A DNA stretch of 32,000 nt, taken from NCBI RefSeq assembly GCF_008189525.1, contig NZ_CP043314.1, positions 570,001-602,000 of the forward strand. Reading direction: 5' to 3'. This DNA is from Candidatus Saccharimonadota bacterium. GTDB taxonomy: Bacteria; Pseudomonadota; Alphaproteobacteria; CAJXXZ01; 1604HC. Below the pieces are notes generated by a model. The model did no database searches, had not been told where the DNA came from, and saw only the letters and a program-made list of their open reading frames with translations. Both the position numbers and the translations under genes were made by a program. Of the stretch, positions 12,637 to 31,283 are shown one piece after another (positions within the stretch are counted from its first letter, which is position 1; each line of letters begins with the position of its first letter).

Positions 12637-13593
12637 ATGACAAAATACATTAATATGCATATGTCAGAAAATATACTAAAAATATCTATTCTTGGAGCTA
12701 ATGGAAGAATGGGGAGTGCAATAGCACTAAAAGCGCTCAAAGATACATATAGTTCTCTCAATTTGATTAACTCAAAAGAAGAAAATAAAACAAGAAACAA
12801 TACAACACAATGTAACCAAATCAATAATAATAAAAATGCTATGATTCACTCTCTTATAGCAAGGAAAACTGAAGACATAAATGAATTAAATAACCTTATA
12901 CAAGGATTCGTACGAGATCTCACCGCAGAATATAATCTCACTGCCGAATATGAATCAACTAAAGAATCAATTAAGTACAAAGAAAATTTAGTCAATGAAA
13001 GTAAAATTCTAAATATTATACAAGAGATTAAAGAAATAAAAATTTCTACAGATATTAATTGCACCAAAGGGTGTGATGTATTATTAGATTTTTCACATTA
13101 CGAAAGCACTCCTTCACATTGTAAATTTGCAGCTTCTAATAACATACCAATACTTATAGGAACAACAGGAAATCATGAACCTGAAGATTATAATTCATAC
13201 TCTAAATCCACTCCAATAATGTGGGCTCCAAATACTTCGTTAATATGGAATTTATTTTCAATAGCAATGAAAGTACTTTCTTCTGAAGATAAAGATATTT
13301 CTTTTGTAGCTGGAGATGTACATCACGAAAACAAAAAAGACAAACCTTCTGGAACAATGAAAAAGTTAAATAGAGATATAAATCTAGAATCTATCTGGAG
13401 CATCAGAAAAGGAGATATGGTTTCATGGAATCAAATTCTTGGAGTTAGCAGTTCTGAAAATGTAAGAATTGAGCACCAGGTTTTAAATAGAGAATCTTAC
13501 GCAATAGGAGCAATAAATGCTGCTATATGGCTCACTAAACAGAAAAAAAATGGTATATATAGCATGCATGACTTCATTAAAGAAAAAATCTAA
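12637..13593 (+). CDS. dapB: 4-hydroxy-tetrahydrodipicolinate reductase (DapB) with a large N/K-rich insertion
   Basis: It has the Rossmann N-terminus KISILGANGRMGSAIALKAL, then CDVLLDFS, IPILIGTTG, the catalytic signature GDVHHENKKDKPSGTMKKL (ExHHxxKxDxPSGTA-type), and the C-terminal NRESYAIGAINAAIWL. The start could be one of the in-frame ATGs a few codons downstream. Confidence 0.8.
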   Translation: MTKYINMHMSENILKISILGANGRMGSAIALKALKDTYSSLNLINSKEENKTRNNTTQCNQINNNKNAMIHSLIARKTEDINELNNLIQGFVRDLTAEYNLTAEYESTKESIKYKENLVNESKILNIIQEIKEIKISTDINCTKGCDVLLDFSHYESTPSHCKFAASNNIPILIGTTGNHEPEDYNSYSKSTPIMWAPNTSLIWNLFSIAMKVLSSEDKDISFVAGDVHHENKKDKPSGTMKKLNRDINLESIWSIRKGDMVSWNQILGVSSSENVRIEHQVLNRESYAIGAINAAIWLTKQKKNGIYSMHDFIKEKI

Positions 13594-14260
13594 CACTCTA
13601 GATAAACCTAACTTAACAGAAGAGGCTAATATACTGAAAAGATCCAGCGTAGTATTCGAGAAGCTAAGTGAAAGCAAACTCCCTGAAACTATAGCCCTTA
13701 ATTATGAAAACCATTACACATTGCTTGTTGCAGTAATATTGTCTGCGCAGTCAAAAGATGAGCAAGTAAATAAAATCACACCAAATTTATTTAAAGTAGC
13801 CTCAACTCCATCAGGAATGATTGAACTTGGATTGGAAAAACTAATAGATCTTGTCAAATCAATAGGTCTGTATAGAAACAAATCAAAGAATATAATAGAA
13901 GCTAGCAAAATTCTTGCAGAAAAATATAATTCTATAGTCCCTGACACAATGGAAGAATTAATAGAATTACCTGGAGTAGGAAGAAAAACTGCAAACGTAA
14001 TTCTTAACTTTGCATTCAAAAAACCGACTATGCCAGTGGATACCCATGTGCTGAGAGTATCCAGAAGGCTTGGACTTACAAAAGAAAAGACTCCAGAGAA
14101 AGTAGAAAGAGATTTGCTAAAGATAGTTCCTGAAAAACTAAATCTAGAAGCTCATAACTTACTTGTTTGGCATGGAAGAAATGTATGCCAAGCCAAAAAA
14201 CCTGATTGCAAAAATTGCTGTTTAAAAGACATTTGTGAATCAGAAGACAAAATAATTTAG
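13517..14260 (+). CDS. nth: Endonuclease III (Nth), HhH-GPD glycosylase with 4Fe-4S cluster
   Basis: Motifs are LLVAVILSAQSKDEQVN, the HhH LPGVGRKTANVILN, VDTHVLRVSRRLGL, and the Cys ligands CQAKKPDCKNCCLKDIC (C-x6-C-x2-C-x5-C). The ORF-track start overlaps dapB by 77 nt. The ATG at 13568 (MTSLKKK) is a more likely start. Confidence 0.9.
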   Translation: MLLYGSLNRKKMVYIACMTSLKKKSNTLDKPNLTEEANILKRSSVVFEKLSESKLPETIALNYENHYTLLVAVILSAQSKDEQVNKITPNLFKVASTPSGMIELGLEKLIDLVKSIGLYRNKSKNIIEASKILAEKYNSIVPDTMEELIELPGVGRKTANVILNFAFKKPTMPVDTHVLRVSRRLGLTKEKTPEKVERDLLKIVPEKLNLEAHNLLVWHGRNVCQAKKPDCKNCCLKDICESEDKII

Positions 14261-19435: not shown

Positions 19436-19717
19436 ACATAAACATTGTGTATAAGGGTATATTTTGGTAAGTTCTTTGCAAGATCTCAGGAGGGATGATG
19501 ACAAGTAATTTGGATAAATTTACATCTGGAGCTAGTGCAAAACAGAGTGCTAACGCTAACGGAAGTACGAACAAGGCAAGCAAATCAAGCACTATGAGCA
19601 AAATGAGGAGCATACTGAAGCTATGCACACTTGCACTTACAGCCCAACACACAAACACGGTTGACATCCCGAAACTACACGACATCCCTAACGAACATGG
19701 TTGTTTTTATCATTTGA
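19436..19717 (+). repeat. Outer inverted repeat, left arm (5' leader, SD, 33-codon leader and constant LRR head)
   Basis: Hand alignment with the reverse complement of 31004-31283. The region from ~55 nt upstream of the ATG through codon ~32 is essentially identical (1 indel and 2 mismatches, all upstream). The head region has about 10 further mismatches, mostly synonymous. Confidence 0.9.
19488..19493 (+). promoter_or_regulatory. Shine-Dalgarno AGGAGG for LRR paralog 1 (within the outer inverted-repeat arm)
   Basis: AGGAGG lies 1 nt and 4 nt upstream of the tandem ATGs at 19495 and 19498. The same sequence is mirrored at 31227-31232. Confidence 0.6.
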
Positions 19718-21510
19718 AATATACAAAAAATGGAACTTTGGATTTATATGAAAGCGGATTGCCAAAATATGAAAGTGGATTGGTAGATCTGTTAGATGGA
19801 ATGGTAGAAATGCATAAATTCAGCAAATCTGACATAGAATTTGTTGCGTTTCTAAGACATGAAATAGAAAAAATCCTTGAAGTTGATTACAATAAGGGAC
19901 TAGAAAATGACTTCTTACTTAAATTTCCAAAAATAAAGGGCATAATAGGAGATGGTGAGCTTGAAGAAGAAGTTTTAGCTGAACATGGATACTCAAAAGA
20001 AGATTATGACAGTACTATTACTGGGTATAATGTTAGAGATTCTTTGGATTGTTTGATTCGTGCCAAGAGAATTTGGGGCAAAATGATTGACCAATATGGG
20101 GAAGAAGATCTTAACAAAATCAAAGATTCAGTAAAAAATGCAAACCATGAATACGAATTAGGGAAAAAAACTCACCTAAACTTAAAAGTTATGCATAATT
20201 TGGTAGGATATGGATTAAGGCAAAGAGAAGCAGCTGGTATGCCAGATGAATCTACATTTTTGCAAAGATGGTACTCTGGAAGACATGCTTATGCAGACGA
20301 TAAAAAGTCTAAAGTATCTATAAAACTAGATAATAGTGCGTTTATTTATCAAGTAATTCCTACTAAAGATTCAGGCACAGACTATGAGAAGAAACCTTGC
20401 GAACGTCATTCGAATATTATGTCTGTTTCATATTTCGATGCAAATACAAAAACAGACAATTTAGTTTGGGCTGGAGATGAAAGAGAATTAAAAGAGAGAA
20501 CCTGCAAAGTTGTTCAATACAACAGCTTCCCAGATTTAAGAAACTTGGATAGAATCGGTCCAATTTTCCAATATGCACTGGCATTGAGATATGTTCATTT
20601 AGATATCACAAGCCCTGATCATTTGTATTGGATGAGATTTGCGCAAGACTTGGAATATGTGAAATTGAGAGTTACAGAATCAGACCACCTAAAGCACTTG
20701 GGTTTGTTGAAAAACACACAATACTTAGGTATTACTAACATAAACGTAGATGATGCAATCATTCTTCCTGAAGAAATCGGCACATTAAGCAAATTAAGGT
20801 GCTTACACTTGAGTGGAGTTGAAGGATATCCAAACCAGATTCATGGAATTAAAGGATTACGTGAAATTAAGTTCGTGGAATCCGAAGGTAAGATAGATAA
20901 AAGCTTAAGTGATTTAGATAAATTGGTACATTTGGAGTTAAGTGGTAAGGTAGAATTGCCTGAAACTATAGAATTATGGGGGCTAGAATCTCTTGTTGCA
21001 CCTAGCGCAGATATAGAAAAAATGCCTAGATTTATCTGCCCTGAATTAAGGTATTTAGATTTAGGAAGTGCAAGATTAGACCATGCTTTAGAGCCTGGAG
21101 CAAAATTACCTATATTTGCAGGTGGTAATGAAATGACCAAAGCAGTAGATTTATCTGAATGCCCTGAGCTACGTGAAGTTTGGGTTGGAAACAGAATCAA
21201 CGAAGTTGACGTGTCTGTGTTTAAGAGTTGCAAAAAGTTGATGTATATTGGACTTGGAGTTGATTTTAAGTACAGTATTAAATCAGGTTTGACTGAGTAT
21301 GTTAAGAAAAATGAGCTATTCTTCGAGTTACTACATCCACTTAATGCAGGTGAAAAATTGCAATACAACTGTAAGATTCCAGGAGAAGATGGTGAGTGGC
21401 TGAAGTTAAAGAGATACCAAGAAAACCAAAAGAGAAATTGGGTAAGAAATAAAAATGCTAGATATAAGCATATGGCAAAAATCTTGAAAGAAAATGGTCA
21501 GCTAAAATAG
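19495..21510 (+). CDS. Leucine-rich-repeat protein, paralog 1 (candidate secreted/injected effector)
   Basis: 671 aa. A 33-aa S/T/N/A/K-rich leader is followed by the constant head MSKMRSILKLCTLALTAQHTNTVDIPKLHDIPNEHGCFYHLKY and a ~260-aa region I do not recognise. About 9-10 irregular LRRs follow (e.g. LPEEIGTLSKLRCLHLSG, LSDLDKLVHLELSG, CPELRYLDLGS, CPELREVWVGN), and the protein ends in a basic tail KRYQENQKRNWVRNKNARYKHMAKILKENGQLK. Confidence 0.75.
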   Translation: MMTSNLDKFTSGASAKQSANANGSTNKASKSSTMSKMRSILKLCTLALTAQHTNTVDIPKLHDIPNEHGCFYHLKYTKNGTLDLYESGLPKYESGLVDLLDGMVEMHKFSKSDIEFVAFLRHEIEKILEVDYNKGLENDFLLKFPKIKGIIGDGELEEEVLAEHGYSKEDYDSTITGYNVRDSLDCLIRAKRIWGKMIDQYGEEDLNKIKDSVKNANHEYELGKKTHLNLKVMHNLVGYGLRQREAAGMPDESTFLQRWYSGRHAYADDKKSKVSIKLDNSAFIYQVIPTKDSGTDYEKKPCERHSNIMSVSYFDANTKTDNLVWAGDERELKERTCKVVQYNSFPDLRNLDRIGPIFQYALALRYVHLDITSPDHLYWMRFAQDLEYVKLRVTESDHLKHLGLLKNTQYLGITNINVDDAIILPEEIGTLSKLRCLHLSGVEGYPNQIHGIKGLREIKFVESEGKIDKSLSDLDKLVHLELSGKVELPETIELWGLESLVAPSADIEKMPRFICPELRYLDLGSARLDHALEPGAKLPIFAGGNEMTKAVDLSECPELREVWVGNRINEVDVSVFKSCKKLMYIGLGVDFKYSIKSGLTEYVKKNELFFELLHPLNAGEKLQYNCKIPGEDGEWLKLKRYQENQKRNWVRNKNARYKHMAKILKENGQLK

Positions 21511-23454
21511 ATGGAGGCAAAAAATATGATTACAAACAAATATAAAATGGGTAATATGAGCAAAATGAGGAACATACTGAAGCTATGCACACTTGCACTT
21601 ACAGCCCAACACACAAACACGGTTGACATCCCTAAACTACACGACACCCCTAACGAACATGGTTGTTTTTATCATTTTAAGTACGTTGAAGGAACTTTTA
21701 GCATAGAAAAGAATGAAACTTTTGAACTTTTAGAGCAAATGTATGAACAAAGTAAATACAGCATAGAGGATATTAAATTAATCGCATTTCTAAGACATGA
21801 ACTAGAGAAGATACTTGAAATTGATTATAAAAAAGGATTGGAAAATGATTTCTTGCTAAAGTTTCCAAAAATAGAAGAAGTTATGGGAGATGGAGAATGG
21901 GAAGAGGAGGTTTTCCTAGGTCATGGATATTCAAAAGAAGAGTATAGACAAACTGATATAGTCTGTAACGTCAGAGATGCTATTTCTTATATGGAATATA
22001 CAAAAAGAATCTGGGGCAAAATTATAAAACAAGAAGATGAGGAAACTGCTAAAGAAATAAAAGATTCAGTAAAAAATACAAATCATGAATGCGAGCTAGG
22101 TCAGAAAACCTATCTAAACTTAGGAGCTATGCTTAATTCCATAGGATATGGATTGAGACAGAGAAAAGAAGCTAGAATGCCAGGTGAATCTACATTTTTG
22201 CAAAGGTGGTATTCTGGAAGACATGCTTATGAAGATGACAAAAAATCTAAAGTATCTATAAAGTTGGATAATAGCAAATTTATCTATCAGGGCATACCCA
22301 CTAAAGATTCAGGAACTGACTATGAGAAAAAACCTATAGAATATAATAATTCTACAGATTTGATGTATTTATCCTATTTCGATGCAAACACAAAAACAGA
22401 TAATCTGGTATGGTGTGGAGATGAAAGAGAACTTAAGGAAAGAACCTGCAAAGTTGTTCAATACAATAGCTTTCCAGATTTGAGAAACTTGGATAGGATA
22501 GGTCCAATTTTCCAATATGCACTGGCTTTAAGGTATGTTCATTTGGATATAACAAGCCCTGATCATTTGTATTGGATGAGATTCGCACAAGATTTGGAAT
22601 ATGTGAAATTGCGTGTAAAAGAATCAGATCATCTAACACATTTAGGTTTGTTGAAAAATACACAATACCTTGGAATTACCAACATAAACGTAGACGAAGC
22701 GATCGTTCTTCCTGAAGAAATCGGCACATTAAGCAAATTAAGGTGCTTACACTTGAGTGGAGTTGAAGGATATCCGAACCAGATTCATGGAATAAAAGGA
22801 TTACGTGAAATTAAGTTCGTGGAATCTGAAGGTAAAATTGATAAAAGTTTGAGCAACCTAGATAAACTTGTTCATTTAGAGCTAAGTGGAAAAGTAGAAT
22901 TGCCTGAAACCATAGAACTATGGGAACTACAATCTCTAGTTGCACCTAGTGCAGACATAGAAAAGATGCCTAAGTTTATTTGCCCTGAATTAAGATATTT
23001 GGATCTAGGAAGTGCAAGATTAGAGCATGCTTTAGAACCTGGAGCAAAATTGCCTATATTTGCAGGTGGTAATGAAATAACAAGCGTATCTGACTTATCT
23101 GAATGTCCAGAATTAAGAGAAGTTTGGGTTGGAAACAGAATCAACGAAGTTGATGTTGAAGTGTTTAAGAATTGCAAGAAGTTGATGTACATAGGATTAG
23201 GAGTTGATTTTAAATATAATATCAAGCAAGGATTAACTGAGTATGTTAAGAAAAATGAGCTATTCTTAGAGTTACTACATCCACTTAATGCAGGAGAAAA
23301 ACTTCAATACAGCTGTAAGATTCCAGGTGAAGATGGTGAATGGTTGAAATTGAAGAGATACCAAGAAAATCAAAAAAGAAATTGGGTAAGAAATAAAAAT
23401 GCTAGATATAAGCATATGGCAAAAATCTTGAAAGAAAATGGTCAGCTAAAATAG
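21511..23454 (+). CDS. Leucine-rich-repeat protein, paralog 2
   Basis: 647 aa with the same architecture as paralog 1, and most positions are identical by eye. It has a short leader, MEAKNMITNKYKMGN, before the constant head. The likely start is 21526. Confidence 0.75.
   Translation: MEAKNMITNKYKMGNMSKMRNILKLCTLALTAQHTNTVDIPKLHDTPNEHGCFYHFKYVEGTFSIEKNETFELLEQMYEQSKYSIEDIKLIAFLRHELEKILEIDYKKGLENDFLLKFPKIEEVMGDGEWEEEVFLGHGYSKEEYRQTDIVCNVRDAISYMEYTKRIWGKIIKQEDEETAKEIKDSVKNTNHECELGQKTYLNLGAMLNSIGYGLRQRKEARMPGESTFLQRWYSGRHAYEDDKKSKVSIKLDNSKFIYQGIPTKDSGTDYEKKPIEYNNSTDLMYLSYFDANTKTDNLVWCGDERELKERTCKVVQYNSFPDLRNLDRIGPIFQYALALRYVHLDITSPDHLYWMRFAQDLEYVKLRVKESDHLTHLGLLKNTQYLGITNINVDEAIVLPEEIGTLSKLRCLHLSGVEGYPNQIHGIKGLREIKFVESEGKIDKSLSNLDKLVHLELSGKVELPETIELWELQSLVAPSADIEKMPKFICPELRYLDLGSARLEHALEPGAKLPIFAGGNEITSVSDLSECPELREVWVGNRINEVDVEVFKNCKKLMYIGLGVDFKYNIKQGLTEYVKKNELFLELLHPLNAGEKLQYSCKIPGEDGEWLKLKRYQENQKRNWVRNKNARYKHMAKILKENGQLK
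21513..21517 (+). promoter_or_regulatory. Shine-Dalgarno GGAGG suggesting the true start of LRR paralog 2 is the ATG at 21526
   Basis: In the sequence ATGGAGGCAAAAAATATG, GGAGG sits 8 nt upstream of the in-frame ATG at 21526. The ATG at 21511 directly abuts the upstream TAG. Confidence 0.5.
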
Positions 23455-25377
23455 ATGGAGGCAAAAAATATGATTACAAACAAATATAAAATGGGTAATA
23501 TGAGCAAAATGAGGAACATACTGAAATTGTGTACGCTTGCACTTACAGCCCAACACACAAACACGGTTGACATCCCGAAACTACATGACACCCCTAACGA
23601 ACATGGCTGTTTTTATCATTTTAAGTACGTTGAAGGAACATTGAATCTGGAACAGAATGAAACCTACGAACTTTTGGAAGGAATGTATGAGCAAAGCAAA
23701 TACAGCTCAGAAGATATAAAATTGATTGCCTTCTTAAGACACGAACTAGAAAAGATTCTTGAAGTTGATTATAAAAAGGGGTTAGAAAATGACTTCTTGC
23801 TCAAGTTTCCTAAAATAGAGGAAGTTATGGGAGACGGAGAATGGGAAGAAGAAGTTCTACTAGGTCATGGATACTCAAAAGAAGATTACAGACAAACTGT
23901 TATTACCTGTAATGTTAGAGATTCTTTTGATTGCTTGATTCGCTCAAAAAGGATCTGGGGCAAGATGATTGACCAATATGGAGAAGAGGATCTAAACAAA
24001 ATAAAAGATTCAATAAAAAATGCAAACCATGAGCATGAATTTGGAAAGAAAACTCATCTTAATTTAAAAGTTATGCATAATTTGGTAGGATATGGATTAA
24101 GACAAAGAGAAGCAGCTAAAATGCCAGATGAATCTACATTTTTGCAAAGATGGTACTCTGGAAGACATGCTTATGAAGATGACAAAAAATCTAAAGTATC
24201 TATAAAGTTAGATAACAGTGCATTTATTTATCAAGGCATCCCTACTAAAGATTCAGAAACTGATTATGAAAATAAACCTTGCGAACGTGATTCAAATATT
24301 ATGTATGTATCATATTTCGATGCAAATACAAAAACAGACAATTTAGTTTGGGCTGGAGATGAAAGAGAATTAAAAGAGAGAACCTGCAAAGTTGTTCAAT
24401 ACAATAGTTTCCCCGATTTAAGAAACTTGGACAGAATCGGTCCTATTTTCCAATATGCATTGGCTTTAAGGTATGTACATTTGGATATCACTAGCCCTGA
24501 TCATTTGTACTGGATGAGATTTGCACAAGACTTAGAGTATGTGAAATTGAGAGTTACAGAATCAGACCACCTAAAGCACTTGGGTTTGTTAAAAAACACA
24601 CAATACCTTGGAATTACCAACATAAACGTAGATGATGCAATCGTTCTTCCTGAAGAAATTGGTAGTTTAAGCAAATTAAGATGCTTACATTTAAGCGGAG
24701 TTGAAGGATATCCAAACCAGATCCATGGCATTAAGGGATTACGCGAAATTAAATTCGTAGAATCTGAAGGTAAGATAGACAAAAGCTTAAGTAATCTGGA
24801 CAAGCTTGTTCACTTAGAACTAAGCGGTAAAGTAGAGTTGCCTGAAACCATAGAATTATGGGAACTACAATCTCTAGTTGCACCTAGTGCAGACATAGAG
24901 AAAATGCCCCAATTTATCTGCCCTGAATTAAGATACTTAGATCTAGGAAGTGCAAGATTAGAGCATGCTTTAGAACCTGGAGCAAAATTGCCTATATTTG
25001 CAGGTGGTAATGAAATTACTAGCGTATCTGACTTGTCCGAATGTCCTGAGCTACGTGAAGTTTGGGTTGGAAACAGAATCAACGAAGTTGACGTGTCTGT
25101 ATTTAAGAGTTGTAAGAAGTTGATGTATATTGGACTTGGAGTTGATTTTAAGTACAGTATTAAATCAGGTTTGACTGAGTATGTTAAGAAAAATGAGCTA
25201 TTCTTCGAGTTACTACATCCACTTAATGCAGGTGAGAAATTGCAATACAACTGCAAGATTCCAGGAGAAGATGGTGAGTGGTTGAAATTAAAGAGATACC
25301 AAGAAAACCAAAAGAGAAGCTGGATGAGAAAAGAACACCCAAGGTACAAACGCATGGAAAAGATCTTTAAGGTTTAA
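23455..25377 (+). CDS. Leucine-rich-repeat protein, paralog 3 (mosaic of paralogs 1 and 2)
   Basis: 640 aa. The N-terminal ~160 aa follow paralog 2 and the middle follows paralog 1. ELWELQS...RLEH...NEITSVSDLSE follows paralog 2, and VSVFKSCKK...YSIKSGL...LFFELL...QYNCK follows paralog 1. Its basic tail is distinct: KRSWMRKEHPRYKRMEKIFKV. Confidence 0.75.
   Translation: MEAKNMITNKYKMGNMSKMRNILKLCTLALTAQHTNTVDIPKLHDTPNEHGCFYHFKYVEGTLNLEQNETYELLEGMYEQSKYSSEDIKLIAFLRHELEKILEVDYKKGLENDFLLKFPKIEEVMGDGEWEEEVLLGHGYSKEDYRQTVITCNVRDSFDCLIRSKRIWGKMIDQYGEEDLNKIKDSIKNANHEHEFGKKTHLNLKVMHNLVGYGLRQREAAKMPDESTFLQRWYSGRHAYEDDKKSKVSIKLDNSAFIYQGIPTKDSETDYENKPCERDSNIMYVSYFDANTKTDNLVWAGDERELKERTCKVVQYNSFPDLRNLDRIGPIFQYALALRYVHLDITSPDHLYWMRFAQDLEYVKLRVTESDHLKHLGLLKNTQYLGITNINVDDAIVLPEEIGSLSKLRCLHLSGVEGYPNQIHGIKGLREIKFVESEGKIDKSLSNLDKLVHLELSGKVELPETIELWELQSLVAPSADIEKMPQFICPELRYLDLGSARLEHALEPGAKLPIFAGGNEITSVSDLSECPELREVWVGNRINEVDVSVFKSCKKLMYIGLGVDFKYSIKSGLTEYVKKNELFFELLHPLNAGEKLQYNCKIPGEDGEWLKLKRYQENQKRSWMRKEHPRYKRMEKIFKV
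23457..23461 (+). promoter_or_regulatory. Shine-Dalgarno GGAGG suggesting the true start of LRR paralog 3 is the ATG at 23470
   Basis: This is the same junction sequence as at 21511-21528, repeated exactly 1944 nt downstream. Confidence 0.5.
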
Positions 25378-25381
25378 TTCA

Positions 25382-26131
25382 GTGGGAGCAAGAGGAGATC
25401 GTTCTACTAAGGAAAAAAAAGAAAAAGCAAAGGAAGTAGAACAGCAGCAAGAAACCATAATTGATGAAGAACCCGTCGATCCAGATATAGGAAGTATATG
25501 TCAGATATACGATGAGAAGTGGGGCGAGACGGTAAGGAACGTAAATGCAGGTACGTATCAGAAACTGATGACGCTTACAAATTTCGGTACAATTGAAGAA
25601 CTAGAAATAGAGGAAGAGCTGTCTGAGCCTTACACTATAAAAGGTAAGTGTTTCTTTTGGGAAGAGATATATGGCGACGTAGTTGGCATGGAACCGAAGG
25701 TCACATTAGCAACAGAAGGTAAAACAAGATATTGGCACGGAGTTATAACTGAGTGGATCGAAGGTGGAACTGATCTTAAGGACGAAAGATATTACTACGA
25801 ATTCGAGATGCGACCAAAATTATGGTATAGGATGCAAAGCAGGCAAAACAAGATACATGTGTCGGATAAGGGCATGCGTGTTAAGGAACTGGCAAGCAAA
25901 CTAATCGAAGATGCGATGCAGAATAATAAAAATACGAAAGTAAAGTTTGAGCAAAAGTACGATGTTAATTTCGCAAAAGTGAAATCAGCTCAAAATAATC
26001 CAAATGAACCATTGATAGAATATGCTGTGCAATATGAAGAAACTACTTACGGTTTCTTCCAAAGATTACTAAGCAATCATGGTATATTTTATTATTATAA
26101 AGTCGAAGACAATTATTCCTGCCTAAGCTAA
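25382..26131 (+). CDS. VgrG N-terminal (gp27-like) head fragment, intact 249-codon ORF with GTG start
   Basis: From DPDIGSICQIYDEKWG to HGIFYYYK it is collinear with residues ~28-235 of the full VgrG at 26841-29414, with 2 amino-acid differences. It then ends with a unique tail, VEDNYSCLS. It starts 4 nt after the LRR3 stop. Whether it is a pseudogene is discussed in the findings. Confidence 0.7.
   Translation: MGARGDRSTKEKKEKAKEVEQQQETIIDEEPVDPDIGSICQIYDEKWGETVRNVNAGTYQKLMTLTNFGTIEELEIEEELSEPYTIKGKCFFWEEIYGDVVGMEPKVTLATEGKTRYWHGVITEWIEGGTDLKDERYYYEFEMRPKLWYRMQSRQNKIHVSDKGMRVKELASKLIEDAMQNNKNTKVKFEQKYDVNFAKVKSAQNNPNEPLIEYAVQYEETTYGFFQRLLSNHGIFYYYKVEDNYSCLS
25477..26101 (+). repeat. Inner inverted repeat, left arm (vgrG head)
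   Basis: 625 nt collinear with the reverse complement of 28710-29334, with 31 mismatches and no indels by my block-by-block hand alignment. Confidence 0.9.
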
Positions 26132-26262
26132 ATTCCACTTATTTAAAAAATCTGATTACTAGAGCTTACAATTAAAAAGATTGATAAGTGATAAAACTAC
26201 AAAAACATAAACATACAAAATCAGAATTATCAACAAAATATTTCAACTGTAGTAAGAAAATA

Positions 26263-26841
26263 CTAACCCATCTCTACGCCAGATTCAAAATAAGTTTTCT
26301 TGATTATTTTTCCTTCTGGATCATATACAGTCCATTGCCCATCTTTTAAATCTTCAAGATACATTCCAGACTCCATGATAGAACCTGTTTTCGGATAAAA
26401 AGTCACAGAAAAACCATTCAATTTATTTTTCTGGAAAATTTCTTGTTTTAACAATTCTCCTTTTTCGAAAACCAAAAACAGCCCGCTTTTCTCTCCATTT
26501 TTGTAATTACCCTTATTAGATATTCCATTTGCATCAAATACGTACACAGGTCCGTGCATCAAATCATCTTTATAATTTGTAATCATTAATAAATTCCCAG
26601 ATTCATATATTTCCATAGGCCCATTCATCTTATTACCAGAATAATTTGTGCGTCTCGTTATGACACTTTTCTCATAAAGAGTCTCTTCGCCTTCTTTTTC
26701 TCCAGCTTTGGAATAGTATCTCTGTACCAGATTTCCTTCTTTATCCCTTATTTCATTATAATCTAAATCACTTTGATCTGATTCTTTGACTGCTCCACAA
26801 GGCTTATAAAAATCGACTATTTGTTCTTTTGTTATATTCAT
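26263..26841 (-). CDS. MORN-repeat-variant (YwqK-like) protein
   Basis: 192 aa made of about six ~23-aa units with the pattern G.......Y.nGk.dG....Y/F (e.g. NYSGNKMNGPMEIYE, NYKDDLMHGPVYVFD, NYKNGEKSGLFLVFE, YLEDLKDGQWTVYD). Its ATG overlaps the vgrG stop (TAATG at 26839-26843 on the minus strand). Confidence 0.7.
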   Translation of the reverse strand: MNITKEQIVDFYKPCGAVKESDQSDLDYNEIRDKEGNLVQRYYSKAGEKEGEETLYEKSVITRRTNYSGNKMNGPMEIYESGNLLMITNYKDDLMHGPVYVFDANGISNKGNYKNGEKSGLFLVFEKGELLKQEIFQKNKLNGFSVTFYPKTGSIMESGMYLEDLKDGQWTVYDPEGKIIKKTYFESGVEMG

Positions 26842-29414
26842 TAGTTTATTTTTACCATTGAACCCTTTATATTAGCAATTGTGTCTGCCTTTAAATCCAA
26901 TTTAGCTCCTTTTATAGACACTCCCGCTTTTCCTTCTATTGAAACTTGTCCCGAAGATTTCAAGCTTATATTAGCATTCGAAGAAATTTCTACAGATTTG
27001 CTAGATTCCATATTAATTCCATCTGCAGAAATTTTTATAGCACCTCCACTTATAGATATTGTATAATCACCAGACTTTATACTAATTGACTTGTTCCCTT
27101 TTATATCAGATTTAAAGTCCCCACTTGATAATGAAATTGATAAATCACCTTTTTCTAATGTTGTACTCAAATTTCCTGAAGCCAATTTCATATCCAAATT
27201 ACCTTTTTCTATTTCGTTAGAAATATTTCCTTCTGTGATTTTCTCTATCAAATCACCTTTGGAGATTTCTATTTTATGATGTGATTTCTCATCTCCCTTG
27301 GATAATAGAGAAATTTCCTTGCTCCCTTTTTCTAGTGTTATTTTATAATCACCCTGCTTTTCATCATCTTCAGCTAGAGTGCTTATTTCTATATTTCCAT
27401 TATTTACCTGCGTATCAATATCCCCTTGTTTTACAAGCAAAATTTTGTCATTTTCTATTTCTGTAAGTAAATCTTTCTGTGCATGGATATAAATTTGCTC
27501 TTCTTCAGCTTTATCAGATATAGTAATTTCATTGAATCCAAAATCTTCTTTTTCATCATCAATTGTTTTGGTTCTCAATCCAGTTTTATGAGAATCATCT
27601 GGCAAATCATATGGATTAGAATTTATGCTATTAAATACCGTACCTATAACAATAGGGTTGTCTGGATTTCCATTTTCATAAGTAACTATTACTTCTTGTC
27701 CAACTCTAGGTATGTAAGAGCCTCCAAATCCAGCGCCTGATCCTCCCCATTGTGCGACTCTCACCCAGCAAGATCTTTCAGAATAAGAAAGCGTATCATC
27801 GTTGTCCCAGTTGAATTTTATTTTCACTCTACCTAAGTCATCAGTGTTGATTTCTGCATTATCAGGCCCTACCACAATAGCAGATTGATATCCTAATATT
27901 TGTCTTTTTACTTTAGGAAGCACTTTAAAAACTGTATTCTCTTTCAGGAAAATAGATTCATTTACATAAGAATATTCAAACCCACTTACTTGACCAGCTT
28001 TGCTTTTTATATTTTGTTGTTTGTACAAAGGGTCAGTTAACGACTCTTCTGCCATTTCTGGGTTTTTCAAAAACAGTTTATGCTTAGTTTTTCTAGCATA
28101 GTATTTATTATCTATGACTTCTTTTACCTGATCAGGAAGATCTCTTTTTGATGCTGCTTTAACATCTGATTTAATTTTTTTTATTTTACTTTTCTTTTCA
28201 GTTTTGTAAACTTTTGTATGTTGATATAAATCTAGGGCAGATTTTAGCTCAAACAAATATCCAGGGCTAATCAAAAAATTACTTGTCACAGACTTATATT
28301 GAGTTTTTACAGACTCTGATGAGTCAGTAATATGCTTTGCATGGTCCTCTGCAGCATCTGGGTCAGTTAATGTTTCGAAGTATTCATTATTTTCAAAGCC
28401 TTCTTCAGCATTTCCCTCATGCTTTTTCTCTTCAACTTTTCCAAGTTTATCGAATTCTACCTCGATACCTGCTTTTTCGTAATTTCGACCTCTTGCCTTT
28501 TGTTTTCCTATCGCATATCTGTTTACTTTTCCCCATGTATCCACAAAAGGGCTGTTTATTTCATCTGATCCCTGTTTAGATAAGAACAAGTTGTCATAAT
28601 TAGCTTCGACCTTGTCATTATCACCTATTTCAATCTTACGTATGCCTGTAATAGGTTCCATTTTGGAAGTGTTATCCTTGAATATGATTTTACTTCCATC
28701 TTTCGCATGTTTATAGTAATAAAATATACCATGATTGCTCAGTAACCTTTGAAAAAACTCATATGTAGTTTCTTCATATTGAACTGCATATTCTATTAAC
28801 GGTCCGTTTGGATTATTTTGAGCTGATTTCACTTTTGCGAAATTAACATCGTACTTTTGCTCAAATTTTACTTTCGTATTCTTGTTATTCTGCATCGCAT
28901 CTTCGATTAGTTTGCTTGCCAGCTCCTTAACACGCATGCCCTTATCCGACACATGTATCTTGTTTTGCCTGCTTTGCATCCTATACCATAATTTTGGTCG
29001 CATCTCGAATTCGTAGTAATATCTTTCATCCTTAAGATCAGTTCCACCTTCGATCCACTCAGTTATAACTCCGTGCCAATATCTTGTTTTACCTTCTGTT
29101 GCCAATGTGACCTTCGGCTCCATACCAACTACGTCGCCATATATCTCTTCCCAAAAGAAACACTTACCTTTTATAGTATAAGGTTCCGATAATTCTTCCT
29201 CTATCTCGAGTTCTTCAATTGTACCGAAATTTGTAAGCGTCATCAGTTTCTGATACGTACCTGCATTTACGTTCCTTACCGTCTCGCCCCACTTCTCATC
29301 GTATATCTGACATATACTTCCTATATCTGGATCGGTAGTTTGAGATTCAGCACTTTTCTGTGCAGAAACTTCACCGTCTTTAGTTTTCTTTTTCTCTTTA
29401 TTTTGTTTAATCAT
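26841..29414 (-). CDS. vgrG: VgrG spike protein (type VI secretion / contractile injection system)
   Basis: 857 aa. The gp27-like part contains YWHGVITEW, YYYEFEMRPKLWY and IEYAVQYEETTYEFFQRLLSNHGIFYYYKH (compare canonical REYCVQYxESDxxFxxRLLEEEGIxYxFEH). The gp5 OB-fold part contains CWVRVAQWGGSGAGFGGSYIPRVGQEVIVTYENGNPDNPIVIGTVFN. The C-terminal ~200 aa form an 8-residue-periodic beta-helix (KGDLSISLSSGDFKSDIKGNKSISIKSGDYTISISGG) ending in GSMVKIN. There is no toxin extension. Confidence 0.9.
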   Translation of the reverse strand: MIKQNKEKKKTKDGEVSAQKSAESQTTDPDIGSICQIYDEKWGETVRNVNAGTYQKLMTLTNFGTIEELEIEEELSEPYTIKGKCFFWEEIYGDVVGMEPKVTLATEGKTRYWHGVITEWIEGGTDLKDERYYYEFEMRPKLWYRMQSRQNKIHVSDKGMRVKELASKLIEDAMQNNKNTKVKFEQKYDVNFAKVKSAQNNPNGPLIEYAVQYEETTYEFFQRLLSNHGIFYYYKHAKDGSKIIFKDNTSKMEPITGIRKIEIGDNDKVEANYDNLFLSKQGSDEINSPFVDTWGKVNRYAIGKQKARGRNYEKAGIEVEFDKLGKVEEKKHEGNAEEGFENNEYFETLTDPDAAEDHAKHITDSSESVKTQYKSVTSNFLISPGYLFELKSALDLYQHTKVYKTEKKSKIKKIKSDVKAASKRDLPDQVKEVIDNKYYARKTKHKLFLKNPEMAEESLTDPLYKQQNIKSKAGQVSGFEYSYVNESIFLKENTVFKVLPKVKRQILGYQSAIVVGPDNAEINTDDLGRVKIKFNWDNDDTLSYSERSCWVRVAQWGGSGAGFGGSYIPRVGQEVIVTYENGNPDNPIVIGTVFNSINSNPYDLPDDSHKTGLRTKTIDDEKEDFGFNEITISDKAEEEQIYIHAQKDLLTEIENDKILLVKQGDIDTQVNNGNIEISTLAEDDEKQGDYKITLEKGSKEISLLSKGDEKSHHKIEISKGDLIEKITEGNISNEIEKGNLDMKLASGNLSTTLEKGDLSISLSSGDFKSDIKGNKSISIKSGDYTISISGGAIKISADGINMESSKSVEISSNANISLKSSGQVSIEGKAGVSIKGAKLDLKADTIANIKGSMVKIN
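28710..29334 (-). repeat. Inner inverted repeat, right arm (codons ~28-235 of full-length vgrG)
   Basis: Partner of 25477-26101. Confidence 0.9.
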
Positions 29415-29419
29415 GCTAT

Positions 29420-31225
29420 TTAAATAAAGTTATCCTTGTTTTTATTTAATTTAGATCTTTTGTTTTTCAACATATATTTATAGATCTGATCCCAGTTTCC
29501 ATTGTTTTTCATATCGTGTTCTGTCTCTGGCTGTTCAATCATAATATATATTTCCTGATTCTTAACCCAATCCATAACAGAATCTTTATCTACCTTATAT
29601 CCATAATCTATGCCTATAGATAGTAATTTAAGTTCAGTAAGTGATGGCAGAGGAATAATTTTCTTGATCCAGTTTCCTATAAATAGCCTTTGCAAGTTTT
29701 TAGGAAGTTTTGACTCTACATCTTCCATGCTTGTCAACAAATTACCAACTGATCTTTTTTCAGATCCACCAAGATGTCTTCTTTGTGTGCTTCCTAAATC
29801 TAACACTTCTAATCTAGAGCACCCAGAAAAATCAGGCATTTCTTTCAATCTTGCATTTGGGATCCTTAACACTTCCAATCTAGGTAGAGATATATCTGTT
29901 TTTAAATATGTATCTGCCATAAATGATGCCACAACCAAATTTGTTAAGCTGTTAAAATTTTCATCTAGCTCTGCAGGAACATGAGCATCTATTTCTTGTA
30001 GATTAGAGCACTTGCTAAATCCATTGCTATACTTTGTTTTTCTTGTTAGCTCTAAATGTCTTAGGTTTTGTAACCCAGATACAGAATTTGGAATCAATGC
30101 AAATCCATCTCCACTTCCATCTACATTAACGGATAATGATCCTAAGTTTTCCATATCTCCCATTTCATATGGCAAATTTATATCTTCCTTTGAATTCAAA
30201 GTTAGTTTTAACTGCAGTTTTTCTAACCCAGGTATCCATTTTAGATTCCTTAAAACATCCAAATCTTCATTTTGCTTATATTCCAATCTAAGTCTTAAGT
30301 CGATTAAATTAGTTGCAAGTCTTATTAATGGGCCAATTTGTTGGTTACATCTAAAGATTTCTACAGAAAATAAATTCAGTTCATCTAATTCTTTAACTGT
30401 TTTTGGAGTTTCACTGTAATCTAATCCGTTATTTATGGATTTTATTCTATTAGTTGAAAACCATCTTGATATTGAATCTTTATCTACCCATTGTTCTACG
30501 TCATTTGTGGTGTTGTTCAAATATTCTATTTTACTATCCAATTCTTTTTTGCTTTTTACTTCTGGTCTAGACTTTTTGTCAACCATATCCTTTGCATCAA
30601 TATAATCATGATAATTAAAGTCATTAACTAAGCTATGCATATTAACTAGAAATGACATAGCAGTGTACAAGTTGTCTCTGGATAAATTTTTATGATAATC
30701 TTCCTCAGAGAATCCTTTTTCTTTTATTAAGCTTAGAACCAGGTTGTAATCTTCTTGATCTTCAGCTGACTCTGCTATTGATTCTACTCTATGCATTTTT
30801 TTGTAATAATTATCTTTAGTCATAAAATCGGATTCTGTTTCTATTATAAATTCCAATTCCATTAAAAGATTTACAACAAAAAACTTCATTTCTGGATTTC
30901 TTCTTAAATCAGATGTATCAACATCATCTAAATCAAATTCTACATGATATGCATCCAAAACCTTTGCTGCTGTTCCATCCGGTTTTTGAGCATCTTTGTA
31001 CTTAAAATGATAAAAACAACCATGTTCGTTAGGGGTGTCGTGTAGTTTAGGGATGTCAACCGTGTTTGTGTGTTGGGCTGTAAGTGCAAGCGTACACAGT
31101 TTCAGTATGTTCCTCATTTTGCTCATGGTGCTTGATTTGCTTGCCTTGTTCGTACTTCCGTTAGCGTTAGCACTCTGTTTTGCACTAGCTCCAGATGTAA
31201 ATTTATCCAAATTACTTGTCATCAT
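29420..31225 (-). CDS. Leucine-rich-repeat protein, paralog 4 (divergent body, same leader and head as paralog 1)
   Basis: 601 aa. The first ~77 aa are near-identical to paralog 1 (MMTSNLDKFTSGASAKQSANANGSTNKASKSSTMSKMRNILKLCTLALTAQHTNTVDIPKLHDTPNEHGCFYHFKY). The rest is only distantly related. LRRs include LRNLKWIPGLEKLQLKL, MGDMENLGSLSVN, VSGLQNLRHLELT, LPRLEVLRIPNARLKEMPDFSGCSRLEVLDLGS. The tail is basic: LKNKRSKLNKNKDNFI. Confidence 0.75.
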   Translation of the reverse strand: MMTSNLDKFTSGASAKQSANANGSTNKASKSSTMSKMRNILKLCTLALTAQHTNTVDIPKLHDTPNEHGCFYHFKYKDAQKPDGTAAKVLDAYHVEFDLDDVDTSDLRRNPEMKFFVVNLLMELEFIIETESDFMTKDNYYKKMHRVESIAESAEDQEDYNLVLSLIKEKGFSEEDYHKNLSRDNLYTAMSFLVNMHSLVNDFNYHDYIDAKDMVDKKSRPEVKSKKELDSKIEYLNNTTNDVEQWVDKDSISRWFSTNRIKSINNGLDYSETPKTVKELDELNLFSVEIFRCNQQIGPLIRLATNLIDLRLRLEYKQNEDLDVLRNLKWIPGLEKLQLKLTLNSKEDINLPYEMGDMENLGSLSVNVDGSGDGFALIPNSVSGLQNLRHLELTRKTKYSNGFSKCSNLQEIDAHVPAELDENFNSLTNLVVASFMADTYLKTDISLPRLEVLRIPNARLKEMPDFSGCSRLEVLDLGSTQRRHLGGSEKRSVGNLLTSMEDVESKLPKNLQRLFIGNWIKKIIPLPSLTELKLLSIGIDYGYKVDKDSVMDWVKNQEIYIMIEQPETEHDMKNNGNWDQIYKYMLKNKRSKLNKNKDNFI

Positions 31226-31283
31226 CCCTCCTGAGATCTTGCAAAGAACTTACCAAAATATACTCTTATACGCAATGTTATGT
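31004..31283 (-). repeat. Outer inverted repeat, right arm
   Basis: Partner of 19436-19717; see that entry. Confidence 0.9.
31227..31232 (-). promoter_or_regulatory. Shine-Dalgarno AGGAGG for LRR paralog 4
   Basis: This is the reverse complement of CCTCCT, immediately upstream of the ATG ATG at 31225-31220, and is a mirror image of 19488-19493. Confidence 0.6.

What the first reader, a model, noticed from the sequence alone, without database searches (positions are those of the whole stretch)
25382..26131. The truncated vgrG head is not decaying: 31 nucleotide differences from the full copy, but only 2 amino-acid changes
I aligned 25477-26101 by hand against the reverse complement of 29334-28710. 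The alignment has no indels and 31 mismatches in 625 nt. Of these, 28 are synonymous third-position or Leu/Arg changes (e.g. cta/ctc, ctg/tta, tct/tcg, aat/aac, aga/agg). Only two codons differ in amino acid: gaa/gga (E/G) and ggt/gag (G/E). A neutrally drifting pseudogene would accumulate mostly non-synonymous changes and frame disruptions. The mismatches are also patchy: none in the first ~114 nt, 8 in the next 60, and 11 in one 60-nt block near the end. That pattern suggests gene-conversion tracts. So the fragment is either expressed as a stand-alone gp27-like head, or it periodically serves as the 5' end of the functional gene, which fits the inversion model.
Basis: seen in the sequence. 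Interest (0 to 1): 0.7.

Follow-up and report, generated by a model that had tools for sequence, protein, structure and literature searches.

The report
Truncated vgrG copy with silent-only differences
A half-length spare copy of a secretion-spike gene (vgrG) in a tiny protist endosymbiont differs from the working copy almost only at silent sites, which most likely means it was part of a working gene until recently and has been patched by gene conversion, not that the stump itself works.

Summary
Arms 25477-26101 (+) and 28710-29334 (-) align without gaps over 625 nt with 31 mismatches. Twenty-seven codons differ only silently and 2 change the amino acid. dN/dS is 0.017 (NG86) or 0.027 (LPB93, bootstrap 0-0.07). 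The mismatches are significantly clustered (p about 0.0002).

The window is Candidatus Nesciobacter abundans, a 616-kb endosymbiont of Diplonema japonicum. Both ORFs are already annotated there, and two independent assemblies show the same orientation.

- Nearly all differences arose under protein-level constraint. At most about 7 unconstrained substitutions fit the data.
- That does not show present function. The ORF holds under half of the gp27-like module (Pfam positions 2-148 of 305) and appears to end inside a beta-hairpin.
- It carries a Gly at a motif position where 0 of 156 homologues have Gly.
- None of 155 homologues ends near this point.

Best reading: a remnant of a second LRR-vgrG module, mosaic through gene conversion and truncated recently. 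RecA-driven inversion across the repeat remains possible but untested, and so does a stand-alone function. No sister genome exists in public data. Moderately low interest.

The parts
25382..26131 (+). Truncated vgrG ORF of 249 codons with a GTG start 4 nt after the LRR-A3 stop. It consists of a 32-codon unique K/E-rich leader, 208 shared codons and a 9-codon unique tail (VEDNYSCLS) before the stop. It is annotated in GenBank as QEK39303.1.
   Evidence: (Phage_GPD positions 2-148 of 305, E 1.3e-18)
25477..26101 (+). Left arm of the 625-nt inverted repeat
28710..29334 (-). Right arm of the inverted repeat, corresponding to codons 28-235 of the intact vgrG
25601..25633 (+). Dense patch 1: 7 of 11 codons differ, all synonymously, so silent sites are saturated
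26003..26071 (+). Dense patch 2: 12 of 23 codons differ, including both amino-acid changes. It encodes the most conserved VgrG motif, EYxVQYxETxFxFxxRL.
26102..26262 (.). Unique tail of the fragment plus a 131-nt gap between convergent genes. It has no significant similarity to anything else in the 36 kb examined.
26841..29414 (-). Intact vgrG of 857 aa with Phage_GPD, Phage_base_V and Gp5_trimer_C domains. Its start lies 5 nt after the LRR-B stop. GenBank QEK39305.1.
26263..26841 (-). MORN_2 / YwqK-like gene whose start overlaps the vgrG stop by 1 nt. The literature calls it a putative immunity partner. It would invert together with the vgrG body.
19495..25377 (+). Three tandem LRR genes (A1, A2, A3) directly upstream of the fragment. 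They are mosaic paralogues with dS 0.68-0.85 and omega 0.08-0.16.
29420..31225 (-). LRR-B gene directly upstream of the intact vgrG. Only its first ~300 nt resemble the LRR-A genes.
19441..19721 (+). Outer inverted repeat, left arm. It covers 54 nt upstream of LRR-A1 plus the first 227 coding nt.
30999..31279 (-). Outer inverted repeat, right arm, at the 5' end of LRR-B. It is 96% identical to the left arm.

Best explanation
The 249-codon ORF is most likely the 5' remnant of a second LRR-vgrG module that faces the intact one.

The two vgrG heads are old paralogues. In two short patches the silent sites are saturated. The rest of the 625 nt has since been homogenised by RecA-type gene conversion, which leaves three layers of divergence: none over codons 0-40 of the shared tract, dS about 0.13 in the middle, and saturation in the patches.

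The silent-only pattern was therefore written while both sequences were translated as parts of complete VgrG proteins. The left copy lost everything beyond codon ~240 only recently, within about 1% neutral divergence at most, and has not yet had time to decay or be deleted.

On its own the stump is probably co-transcribed with the LRR-A genes but has no spike function.

What is shown: the alignment, the omega value, the clustering, the domain coverage and the orientation in two assemblies. What is inferred: the former full-length state, the conversion history and the recency of the truncation.
For: - **Constraint on the history.** Omega is 0.017-0.027. At most about 7 unconstrained substitutions are compatible with the data.
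- **Mosaic structure.** Clustering is significant. By segment, pS is 0 in codons 0-40, 1.17 in codons 41-51, 0.12 in codons 52-174 and 0.82 in codons 175-197.
- **Boundaries.** Both edges of the repeat are sharp and the flanks are not homologous.
- **Same process next door.** LRR-B and the LRR-A genes share a sharply bounded 129-281-nt 5' tract at 96-97% identity in otherwise saturated genes. The LRR-A paralogues show window identities ranging from 54% to 98%.
- **Matching module layout.** Both heads start 4-5 nt after an LRR stop codon and have an open K/E-rich leader.
- **Incomplete domain.** The stump has under half of the gp27 module and appears to end inside a hairpin.
- **No family precedent.** None of 155 homologues ends within 30 aa of that point, and the fragment's Gly in the conserved motif is seen in 0 of 156 homologues.
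- **Recombination machinery.** The published genome description reports RecA/RecFOR and MutSL.
- **Silent-site GC.** It is higher in the repeated head than in the unique body: GC3 78/208 against 143/622, p=6e-5. This fits biased conversion.
Against: - The genome is described as gene-dense with very few pseudogenes, so a 750-nt dead ORF must be young.
- The middle layer has 8 synonymous and 0 non-synonymous differences. On my back-of-envelope reading, this puts the truncation in roughly the last tenth of the time since that layer was homogenised.
- No trace of a second vgrG body or second MORN gene remains.
- No outgroup exists to place changes on branches.
- None of 80 unrelated vgrG loci shows an inverted head copy, so this is not a routine kind of debris.
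- The Trinity ORF P0004 begins at exactly the first ATG available in the fragment's frame. This may mean that the fragment's 5' flank is transcribed and joined to the body.
Confidence: 0.45

Rival explanations
1. Flip-flop inversion. RecA-mediated crossing-over between the two 625-nt arms inverts 26102-28709, which holds the vgrG body and the MORN gene. The single body is then joined alternately to the LRR-A-side head and the LRR-B-side head. Each head is exposed to selection part of the time, and this keeps both intact.
For: - The geometry is exact. The arms are inverted and in the same codon phase, and each has its own start codon 4-5 nt after an LRR gene.
- Perfect-identity tracts of 126, 104, 74, 59 and 53 nt are available for recombination.
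- RecA is reported present.
- Both amino-acid changes lie in the 3'-most patch. A crossover exchanges only the part of an arm that lies 5' of it, so this patch can hardly ever be exchanged. The chance that both changed codons fall in the last 33 of 208 codons is about 0.025 (my calculation from the positions).
- Trinity isoform i2 yields an ORF starting at MTLTNF, as expected if the fragment's 5' flank is joined to the body.
- Four-fold-site skews of LRR-B and the vgrG body are not those of their present strand.
Against: - Two assemblies made years apart have the same orientation and identical proteins.
- No recombinase gene lies within 10 kb.
- MutSL is present and the arms are 5% diverged.
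- With identity tracts of about 100 nt, inversion is probably rarer than mutational decay of the detached head, so it could not sustain an omega near 0 (my inference from published recombination rates).
- Inversion would change only a ~30-aa leader and 2 residues of VgrG, so no benefit is evident.
- The Trinity isoform could be a chimera formed through the 126 identical nt.
Confidence: 0.2
2. The stump is a gene in its own right. A 249-aa protein, made of the first tube domain of VgrG plus part of the next domain, is translated from the LRR-A operon and kept by purifying selection.
For: - Omega is 0.017-0.027 with no stop or frameshift in 249 codons.
- The start is operon-like.
- NCBI annotates it as an ordinary CDS.
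- The genome has few pseudogenes, and its type VI system is reported to lack an Hcp tube protein.
- From general knowledge, the first gp27 domain has the Hcp-like tube fold.
Against: - It ends in the middle of the module, and in the low-confidence model inside a hairpin.
- No homologue among 155 ends near this point.
- Gly at a motif position never occupied by Gly in the family.
- No ORF with the fragment's tail appears among the EukProt transcriptome proteins that were retrieved.
- There is no comparative evidence at all.
Confidence: 0.1
3. Continuous gene conversion from the intact gene alone keeps a dead fragment looking healthy.
For: Conversion clearly operates here, as shown by the identical tracts and the clustering of mismatches.
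Against: Conversion erases silent and replacement differences alike. The differences left at any moment should therefore include the fragment's own mutations in the neutral proportion, about 72% non-synonymous. That would give an omega near 0.5, not 0.02. Conversion can shorten the visible record of decay, but it cannot create a silent-only pattern.
Confidence: 0.05

Closest known systems
Concerted evolution of inverted duplicate genes by RecA-dependent gene conversion (for example tufA/tufB in Salmonella; from general knowledge)
   Same: Two inverted copies are kept nearly identical over a sharply bounded coding tract. The divergence is patchy. Recombination between the copies can also invert the intervening DNA.
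   Different: In the tuf case both copies are complete, functional genes. Here one copy is a 5' stump, so conversion has no obvious selective role.
Orphan or displaced fragments in T6SS, Rhs and CDI effector loci (vgrG/rhs core pieces left by recombination; from general knowledge)
   Same: A partial copy of the conserved part of a polymorphic-toxin or spike gene lies next to the intact gene, in a locus rich in effector-like genes.
   Different: Typical orphans keep the variable 3' toxin and immunity part in direct orientation. Here the conserved 5' head is kept, in inverted orientation, and no alternative 3' module is attached.
Gene-altering programmed inversions (hsdS shufflons, phage tail-fibre invertons; Milman et al. 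2023, PMC9881135)
   Same: A full-length gene and an inverted partial copy share in-frame repeats inside the coding sequence, so an inversion would build an alternative full-length gene.
   Different: There is no recombinase nearby. The repeats are long homologous tracts, not short recombination sites. The swapped parts encode almost the same protein. VgrG/T6SS is not mentioned in the main text of that survey. No orientation variants have been seen.
Silent donor cassettes for antigenic variation (pilS, vls, msp2 pseudogenes; from general knowledge)
   Same: Truncated, promoter-less copies stay free of stops because they exchange sequence with an expressed gene.
   Different: Those cassettes are kept because they differ in protein sequence. 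Here the two copies are 99% identical in protein, so there is no diversity to donate.

Membership tests
VgrG/TssI spike protein (functional) | Complete gp27-like module (Pfam Phage_GPD, about 305 profile positions, with two tube domains) | tested here: not met
   The fragment matches profile positions 2-148 of 305. The intact gene matches 2-281. In the alignment to solved VgrG structures, the fragment stops at about residue 172 of 7q5p, well before the gp5-type region that begins at about residue 355.
VgrG/TssI spike protein (functional) | gp5-type OB fold and C-terminal beta-helix | tested here: not met
   Phage_base_V and Gp5_trimer_C are found only in the 857-aa gene and are absent from the 249-aa ORF.
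Decaying pseudogene | Frameshifts or internal stop codons, and dN/dS near 1 against the parent copy | tested here: not met
   No indel or stop in 249 codons. Omega is 0.017-0.027, with an upper bootstrap bound of 0.071.
Decaying pseudogene | Truncation relative to the family, and substitutions foreign to the family | tested here: met
   The fragment lacks about 70% of the gene (249 of 857 codons). It has Gly at a position where 0 of 156 homologues have Gly. None of 155 homologues ends within 30 aa of the truncation point.
Gene-conversion mosaic between paralogues | Sharply bounded high-identity tract between unalignable flanks, with mismatches clustered more than chance allows | tested here: met
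   Flank similarity is no better than shuffled sequence (p=0.98 global, 0.16 local). Clustering has p=0.00015. There are three divergence layers.
Gene-conversion mosaic between paralogues | Homologous recombination machinery present | not testable with these tools
   recA is not in the window. George et al. report RecA/RecFOR and MutSL in this genome. A mutS-like ORF lies in the window at 7264-9672, identified from its translation and not checked against a family library.
Gene-altering programmed inversion | Inverted repeats inside coding sequence, in frame, linking a full gene and a partial copy | tested here: met
Gene-altering programmed inversion | Dedicated site-specific recombinase next to the invertible segment | tested here: not met
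   Among the called genes within 10 kb on each side, none has an integrase or resolvase domain. The ORF lists agree.
Gene-altering programmed inversion | Both orientations observed among reads or genomes | tested here: inconclusive
   Two assemblies of the same culture have the same orientation. One Trinity ORF (P0004) is compatible with the inverted form or with a chimera.
Gene-altering programmed inversion | Alternative forms encode functionally different proteins | tested here: not met
   The two heads differ by 2 residues in 208, plus a ~30-aa leader.

The most novel reading that the evidence does not exclude
The stump is a maintained gene. It would be a free-standing first tube domain of VgrG, translated from the LRR-A operon and held under strong purifying selection. 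It could conceivably supply the Hcp-like tube function that this endosymbiont's type VI system is reported to lack. A milder version is that it is the alternate 5' end of a recombinase-independent invertible vgrG.
Probability: 0.08. Interest if true: 0.75.

Novelty: new member of a known kind. Interest (0 to 1): 0.3.

Why it matters
If the main reading holds, this is a clean worked example of a general caution. A low dN/dS between a gene fragment and its parent records the history of the sequences, not the present function of the fragment. It would also show that gene conversion is still active in a 616-kb endosymbiont genome.

If either rival holds, it would be more notable. An inversion would be the first invertible vgrG. 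A functional stump would be a free-standing half-gp27 protein in a type VI system reported to lack Hcp. Either would bear on how these mitochondrion-associated symbionts deploy their LRR proteins. The existing PacBio HiFi and RNA-seq reads could settle the inversion and transcription questions directly.

Tried and rejected
- **Assembly artefact.** Rejected. Two independent assemblies, one from PacBio HiFi reads, carry both exact proteins, and the DNA is identical over the 16.6 kb compared.
- **Conversion alone as the cause of the silent-only pattern.** Rejected by the expected neutral proportion of non-synonymous changes.
- **Old homology in the flanks** (leader 25382-25476 against 29335-29414, and tail 26102-26262 against 36 kb). 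Nothing beyond composition was found.
- **Sister-genome test.** This failed for lack of data:
  - Three homologue searches found only the same organism plus VgrGs whose gp5-region alignments reach only 34-47% identity.
  - Two scans of species-representative genomes contained neither Nesciobacter nor Cytomitobacter.
  - The exhaustive search of 1.84 billion representatives gave a next-best hit of E 9e-15 at 34% identity.
  - The metagenome scan gave one hit at 24% identity.
- **Look-ups of the two transcriptome ORFs.** Not on record.
- **AlphaFold model of VgrG.** Mean pLDDT was 47.9, so it was used only for local secondary structure and not sent to a fold search.
- **Terminator and promoter scan.** No terminator-like site was found, and promoter-like sites were at or below the shuffled expectation.
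- **Strand-composition test for past orientation.** Suggestive for LRR-B but too noisy for the 2.6-kb segment.
- **Direction of GC/AT changes between the arms.** Symmetric at 14 against 15, so uninformative.
- **Survey of 80 unrelated vgrG loci for an inverted head copy.** None found.

Full report
**What the window is**

The 249-aa ORF and the 857-aa VgrG are exact matches to QEK39303.1 and QEK39305.1 of Candidatus Nesciobacter abundans. This is a Holosporaceae endosymbiont of the protist Diplonema japonicum with a 616-kb genome. Both proteins occur on two assemblies, of 616,088 and 616,058 bp. The second was made from PacBio HiFi reads and is identical to the window over the 16.6 kb compared. 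NCBI annotates the short ORF as an ordinary CDS of the VgrG/Pvc8 family.

**Checking the observation**

The ungapped alignment of 25477-26101 with the reverse complement of 28710-29334 has 625 positions, 31 mismatches and no indel. Twenty-seven codons differ only synonymously. Two change the residue: E/G at 26006 and G/E at 26051.

The formal estimates are:
- NG86: dS 0.288, dN 0.005, omega 0.017.
- LPB93, which allows for the 25:6 transition excess: omega 0.027, with a bootstrap interval of 0 to 0.071.

In simulations with the observed transition bias, 72% of random substitutions are non-synonymous. Three or fewer non-synonymous nucleotides has probability 0.04 after 8 random hits and 0 after 15.

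The mismatches are clustered. Twelve of 22 consecutive codons differ in one place (permutation p=0.00015) and the gap variance is also high (p=0.002).

**Anatomy of the locus**

On the + strand, three tandem LRR genes (19495-25377) run straight into the stump, whose GTG lies 4 nt after the LRR-A3 stop. On the - strand, a fourth LRR gene (29420-31225) runs into the intact vgrG, whose ATG lies 5 nt after the LRR-B stop. The intact vgrG overlaps by 1 nt a MORN_2/YwqK-like gene (26263-26841).

The two modules face each other. The shared 625 nt begin roughly where homologous VgrGs start, by eye in the alignment. Upstream of that point, each copy has its own K/E-rich leader of 27-32 residues, and the two leaders show no nucleotide similarity beyond composition.

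Downstream, the stump runs 9 codons into sequence that matches nothing else.

A second, outer inverted repeat of 281 nt (96% identity) joins the 5' ends of LRR-A1 and LRR-B. A 129-nt part of it is shared by all four LRR genes at 96-97%, although LRR-B is otherwise saturated against the LRR-A genes. The LRR-A paralogues are themselves mosaics, with 54-98% identity by window, dS 0.68-0.85 and omega 0.08-0.16. Sharply bounded homogenised tracts are thus a general property of this locus.

**Layers inside the repeat**

| Codons of the shared tract | Window coordinates | Differences |
|---|---|---|
| 0-40 | 25478-25600 | none |
| 41-51 | 25601-25633 | 8 synonymous in 6.8 synonymous sites |
| 52-174 | 25634-26002 | 8 synonymous, 0 non-synonymous (dS 0.13) |
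| 175-197 | 26003-26071 | 11.5 synonymous and 2.5 non-synonymous (pS 0.82) |

The two dense patches are as different at silent sites as sequences encoding the same peptide can be. The second patch encodes the most conserved motif of the family.

This is the picture expected for two anciently diverged coding sequences that were later partly homogenised.

**What the silent-only pattern does and does not show**

It shows that nearly all differences arose while both sequences were constrained as protein. It does not show that the stump is constrained now.

Continuous conversion from the intact gene cannot by itself produce the pattern. Conversion removes silent and replacement differences alike, so the residue should contain the stump's own mutations in neutral proportion.

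Three histories remain:
1. The left copy was a complete gene until recently.
2. The two heads take turns on the single body through inversion.
3. The stump has a function of its own.

**Is it a stand-alone head?**

The stump matches Pfam Phage_GPD positions 2-148 of 305, against 2-281 for the intact gene. In the alignment to solved VgrGs it stops at about residue 172 of 7q5p, well before the gp5-type region that begins near residue 355 of that chain.

The AlphaFold model was poor overall (mean pLDDT 47.9). In the 60-72 pLDDT stretch around the cut, it places the end between the two strands of a hairpin, 231-237 and 240-246.

From general knowledge of gp27, the second tube domain follows this point, so the stump cannot form the usual trimeric ring.

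Among the hits of the exhaustive search together with the homologues retrieved earlier, none of 155 that aligned ends within 30 residues of this point. At the position where the stump has Gly (ETTY-G-FF), 156 homologues have N 59, D 58, A 21, H 6, E 4, S 3, Q 3, T 2 and G 0. The intact copy has Glu. At least one of the two replacements is therefore a family-foreign change on the stump.

**Inversion**

A crossover between the arms would invert 26102-28709 and build an in-frame vgrG behind the LRR-A genes, leaving a mirror-image stump behind LRR-B.

Points in favour:
- Identity tracts of up to 126 nt are available.
- RecA is reported present.
- Both replacements sit in the 3'-most patch. A crossover exchanges only what lies 5' of it, so this patch would almost never be exchanged.
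- The transcriptome ORF P0004 starts at exactly the first ATG available in the stump's frame after the stop at 25325.
- Four-fold-site skews of LRR-B and the vgrG body do not match their present strand.

Points against:
- The orientation and the proteins are identical in two assemblies.
- No recombinase lies within 10 kb.
- MutSL is present.
- The protein difference between the two forms is trivial.
- By my estimate, inversion through ~100-nt identity tracts is probably slower than decay of the detached head (inference).
- The Trinity isoform may be a chimera through the identical 126 nt.
- The survey of gene-altering inversions does not mention VgrG in its main text.

**Verdict**

I favour a recently truncated second vgrG paralogue shaped by gene conversion (0.45), over inversion (0.2), stand-alone function (0.1) and conversion alone (0.05).

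The main weaknesses of the favoured view are these:
- The truncation must be recent.
- No trace of a second body remains.
- The genome is said to hold few pseudogenes.

No sister genome is available to test any of this. The gp27 module has no relative above about 35% identity in 1.84 billion representative proteins. Neither the genome nor the metagenome collections hold a close relative. None of 80 unrelated vgrG loci has an inverted head copy, so the arrangement is uncommon even if its explanation is ordinary.

The existing HiFi and RNA-seq reads would settle the inversion and transcription questions quickly.

Noticed in passing
window 19593-19721, 21555-21683, 23499-23627 and 30998-31126 (-): All four LRR genes share a 129-nt 5' tract at 96-97% identity. 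It encodes MSKMRNILKLCTLALTAQHTNTV…, which looks like a signal peptide by eye. The annotated starts of LRR-A1 and LRR-B lie 33 codons further upstream and may be too long.
   Followed up: partly
window 19441-19721 and 30999-31279: An outer inverted repeat of 281 nt (96%) spans 54 nt of upstream DNA plus the 5' coding end of LRR-A1 and LRR-B. It has 11 mismatches: 2 non-coding, 6 synonymous codons and 3 replacements. It could invert the whole 11.3-kb block between its arms.
   Followed up: partly
window 28710-29334 versus 26844-28709: Silent-site GC is higher in the repeated head than in the unique body of the same gene: GC3 78/208 against 143/622 (p=6e-5). Four-fold-site GC is 0.27 in the head, 0.17 in the body and 0.135 in housekeeping genes. 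GC-biased conversion is a possibility, although the LRR-A paralogues do not show it.
   Followed up: partly
whole window; LRR-B 29420-31225, vgrG body 26841-28709: Four-fold sites show clear strand asymmetry. Housekeeping genes on the + strand have GC skew -0.20 and AT skew +0.14. Those on the - strand have +0.31 and -0.16. LRR-B, on the - strand, has an AT skew of +0.17, like a + strand gene. The vgrG body and the LRR-A genes are intermediate. This hints that the block has changed orientation in the past.
   Followed up: partly
window about 28287 and 28530 (-); proteins P0001 and P0004: Both transcriptome ORFs from the host's Trinity assembly end in a 27-residue tail. The tail is vgrG sequence from about 28530 read in another frame, after a backward jump from about 28287. 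This is probably an assembly or template-switch artefact. The intact copy is at least represented in poly(A) RNA-seq.
   Followed up: partly
window 26841-29414 (-): The Nesciobacter VgrG is very isolated. Outside its own organism, the best match to its gp27 module among 1.84 billion representative proteins is E 9e-15 at 34% identity. It carries lineage-specific insertions, for example a K-rich stretch at about residues 395-480.
   Followed up: partly
L002 175-3079: A Logan contig (SRR30592953) encodes the closest full-length VgrG relative found, with 34% identity over 41% of the query. It is directly followed by a MORN_2 protein, so the vgrG-MORN/YwqK pairing recurs outside this genome.
   Followed up: no
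window 9781-11667 (-): A 628-aa protein has a secretin domain preceded by TPR repeats. It fits the reduced T2SS/type IV pilus machinery described for this symbiont.
   Followed up: no
window 13517-14260 and 12637-13593: The endonuclease III-like ORF, as listed, overlaps the end of the dapB-like ORF by 77 nt. Its true start is probably further downstream.
   Followed up: no
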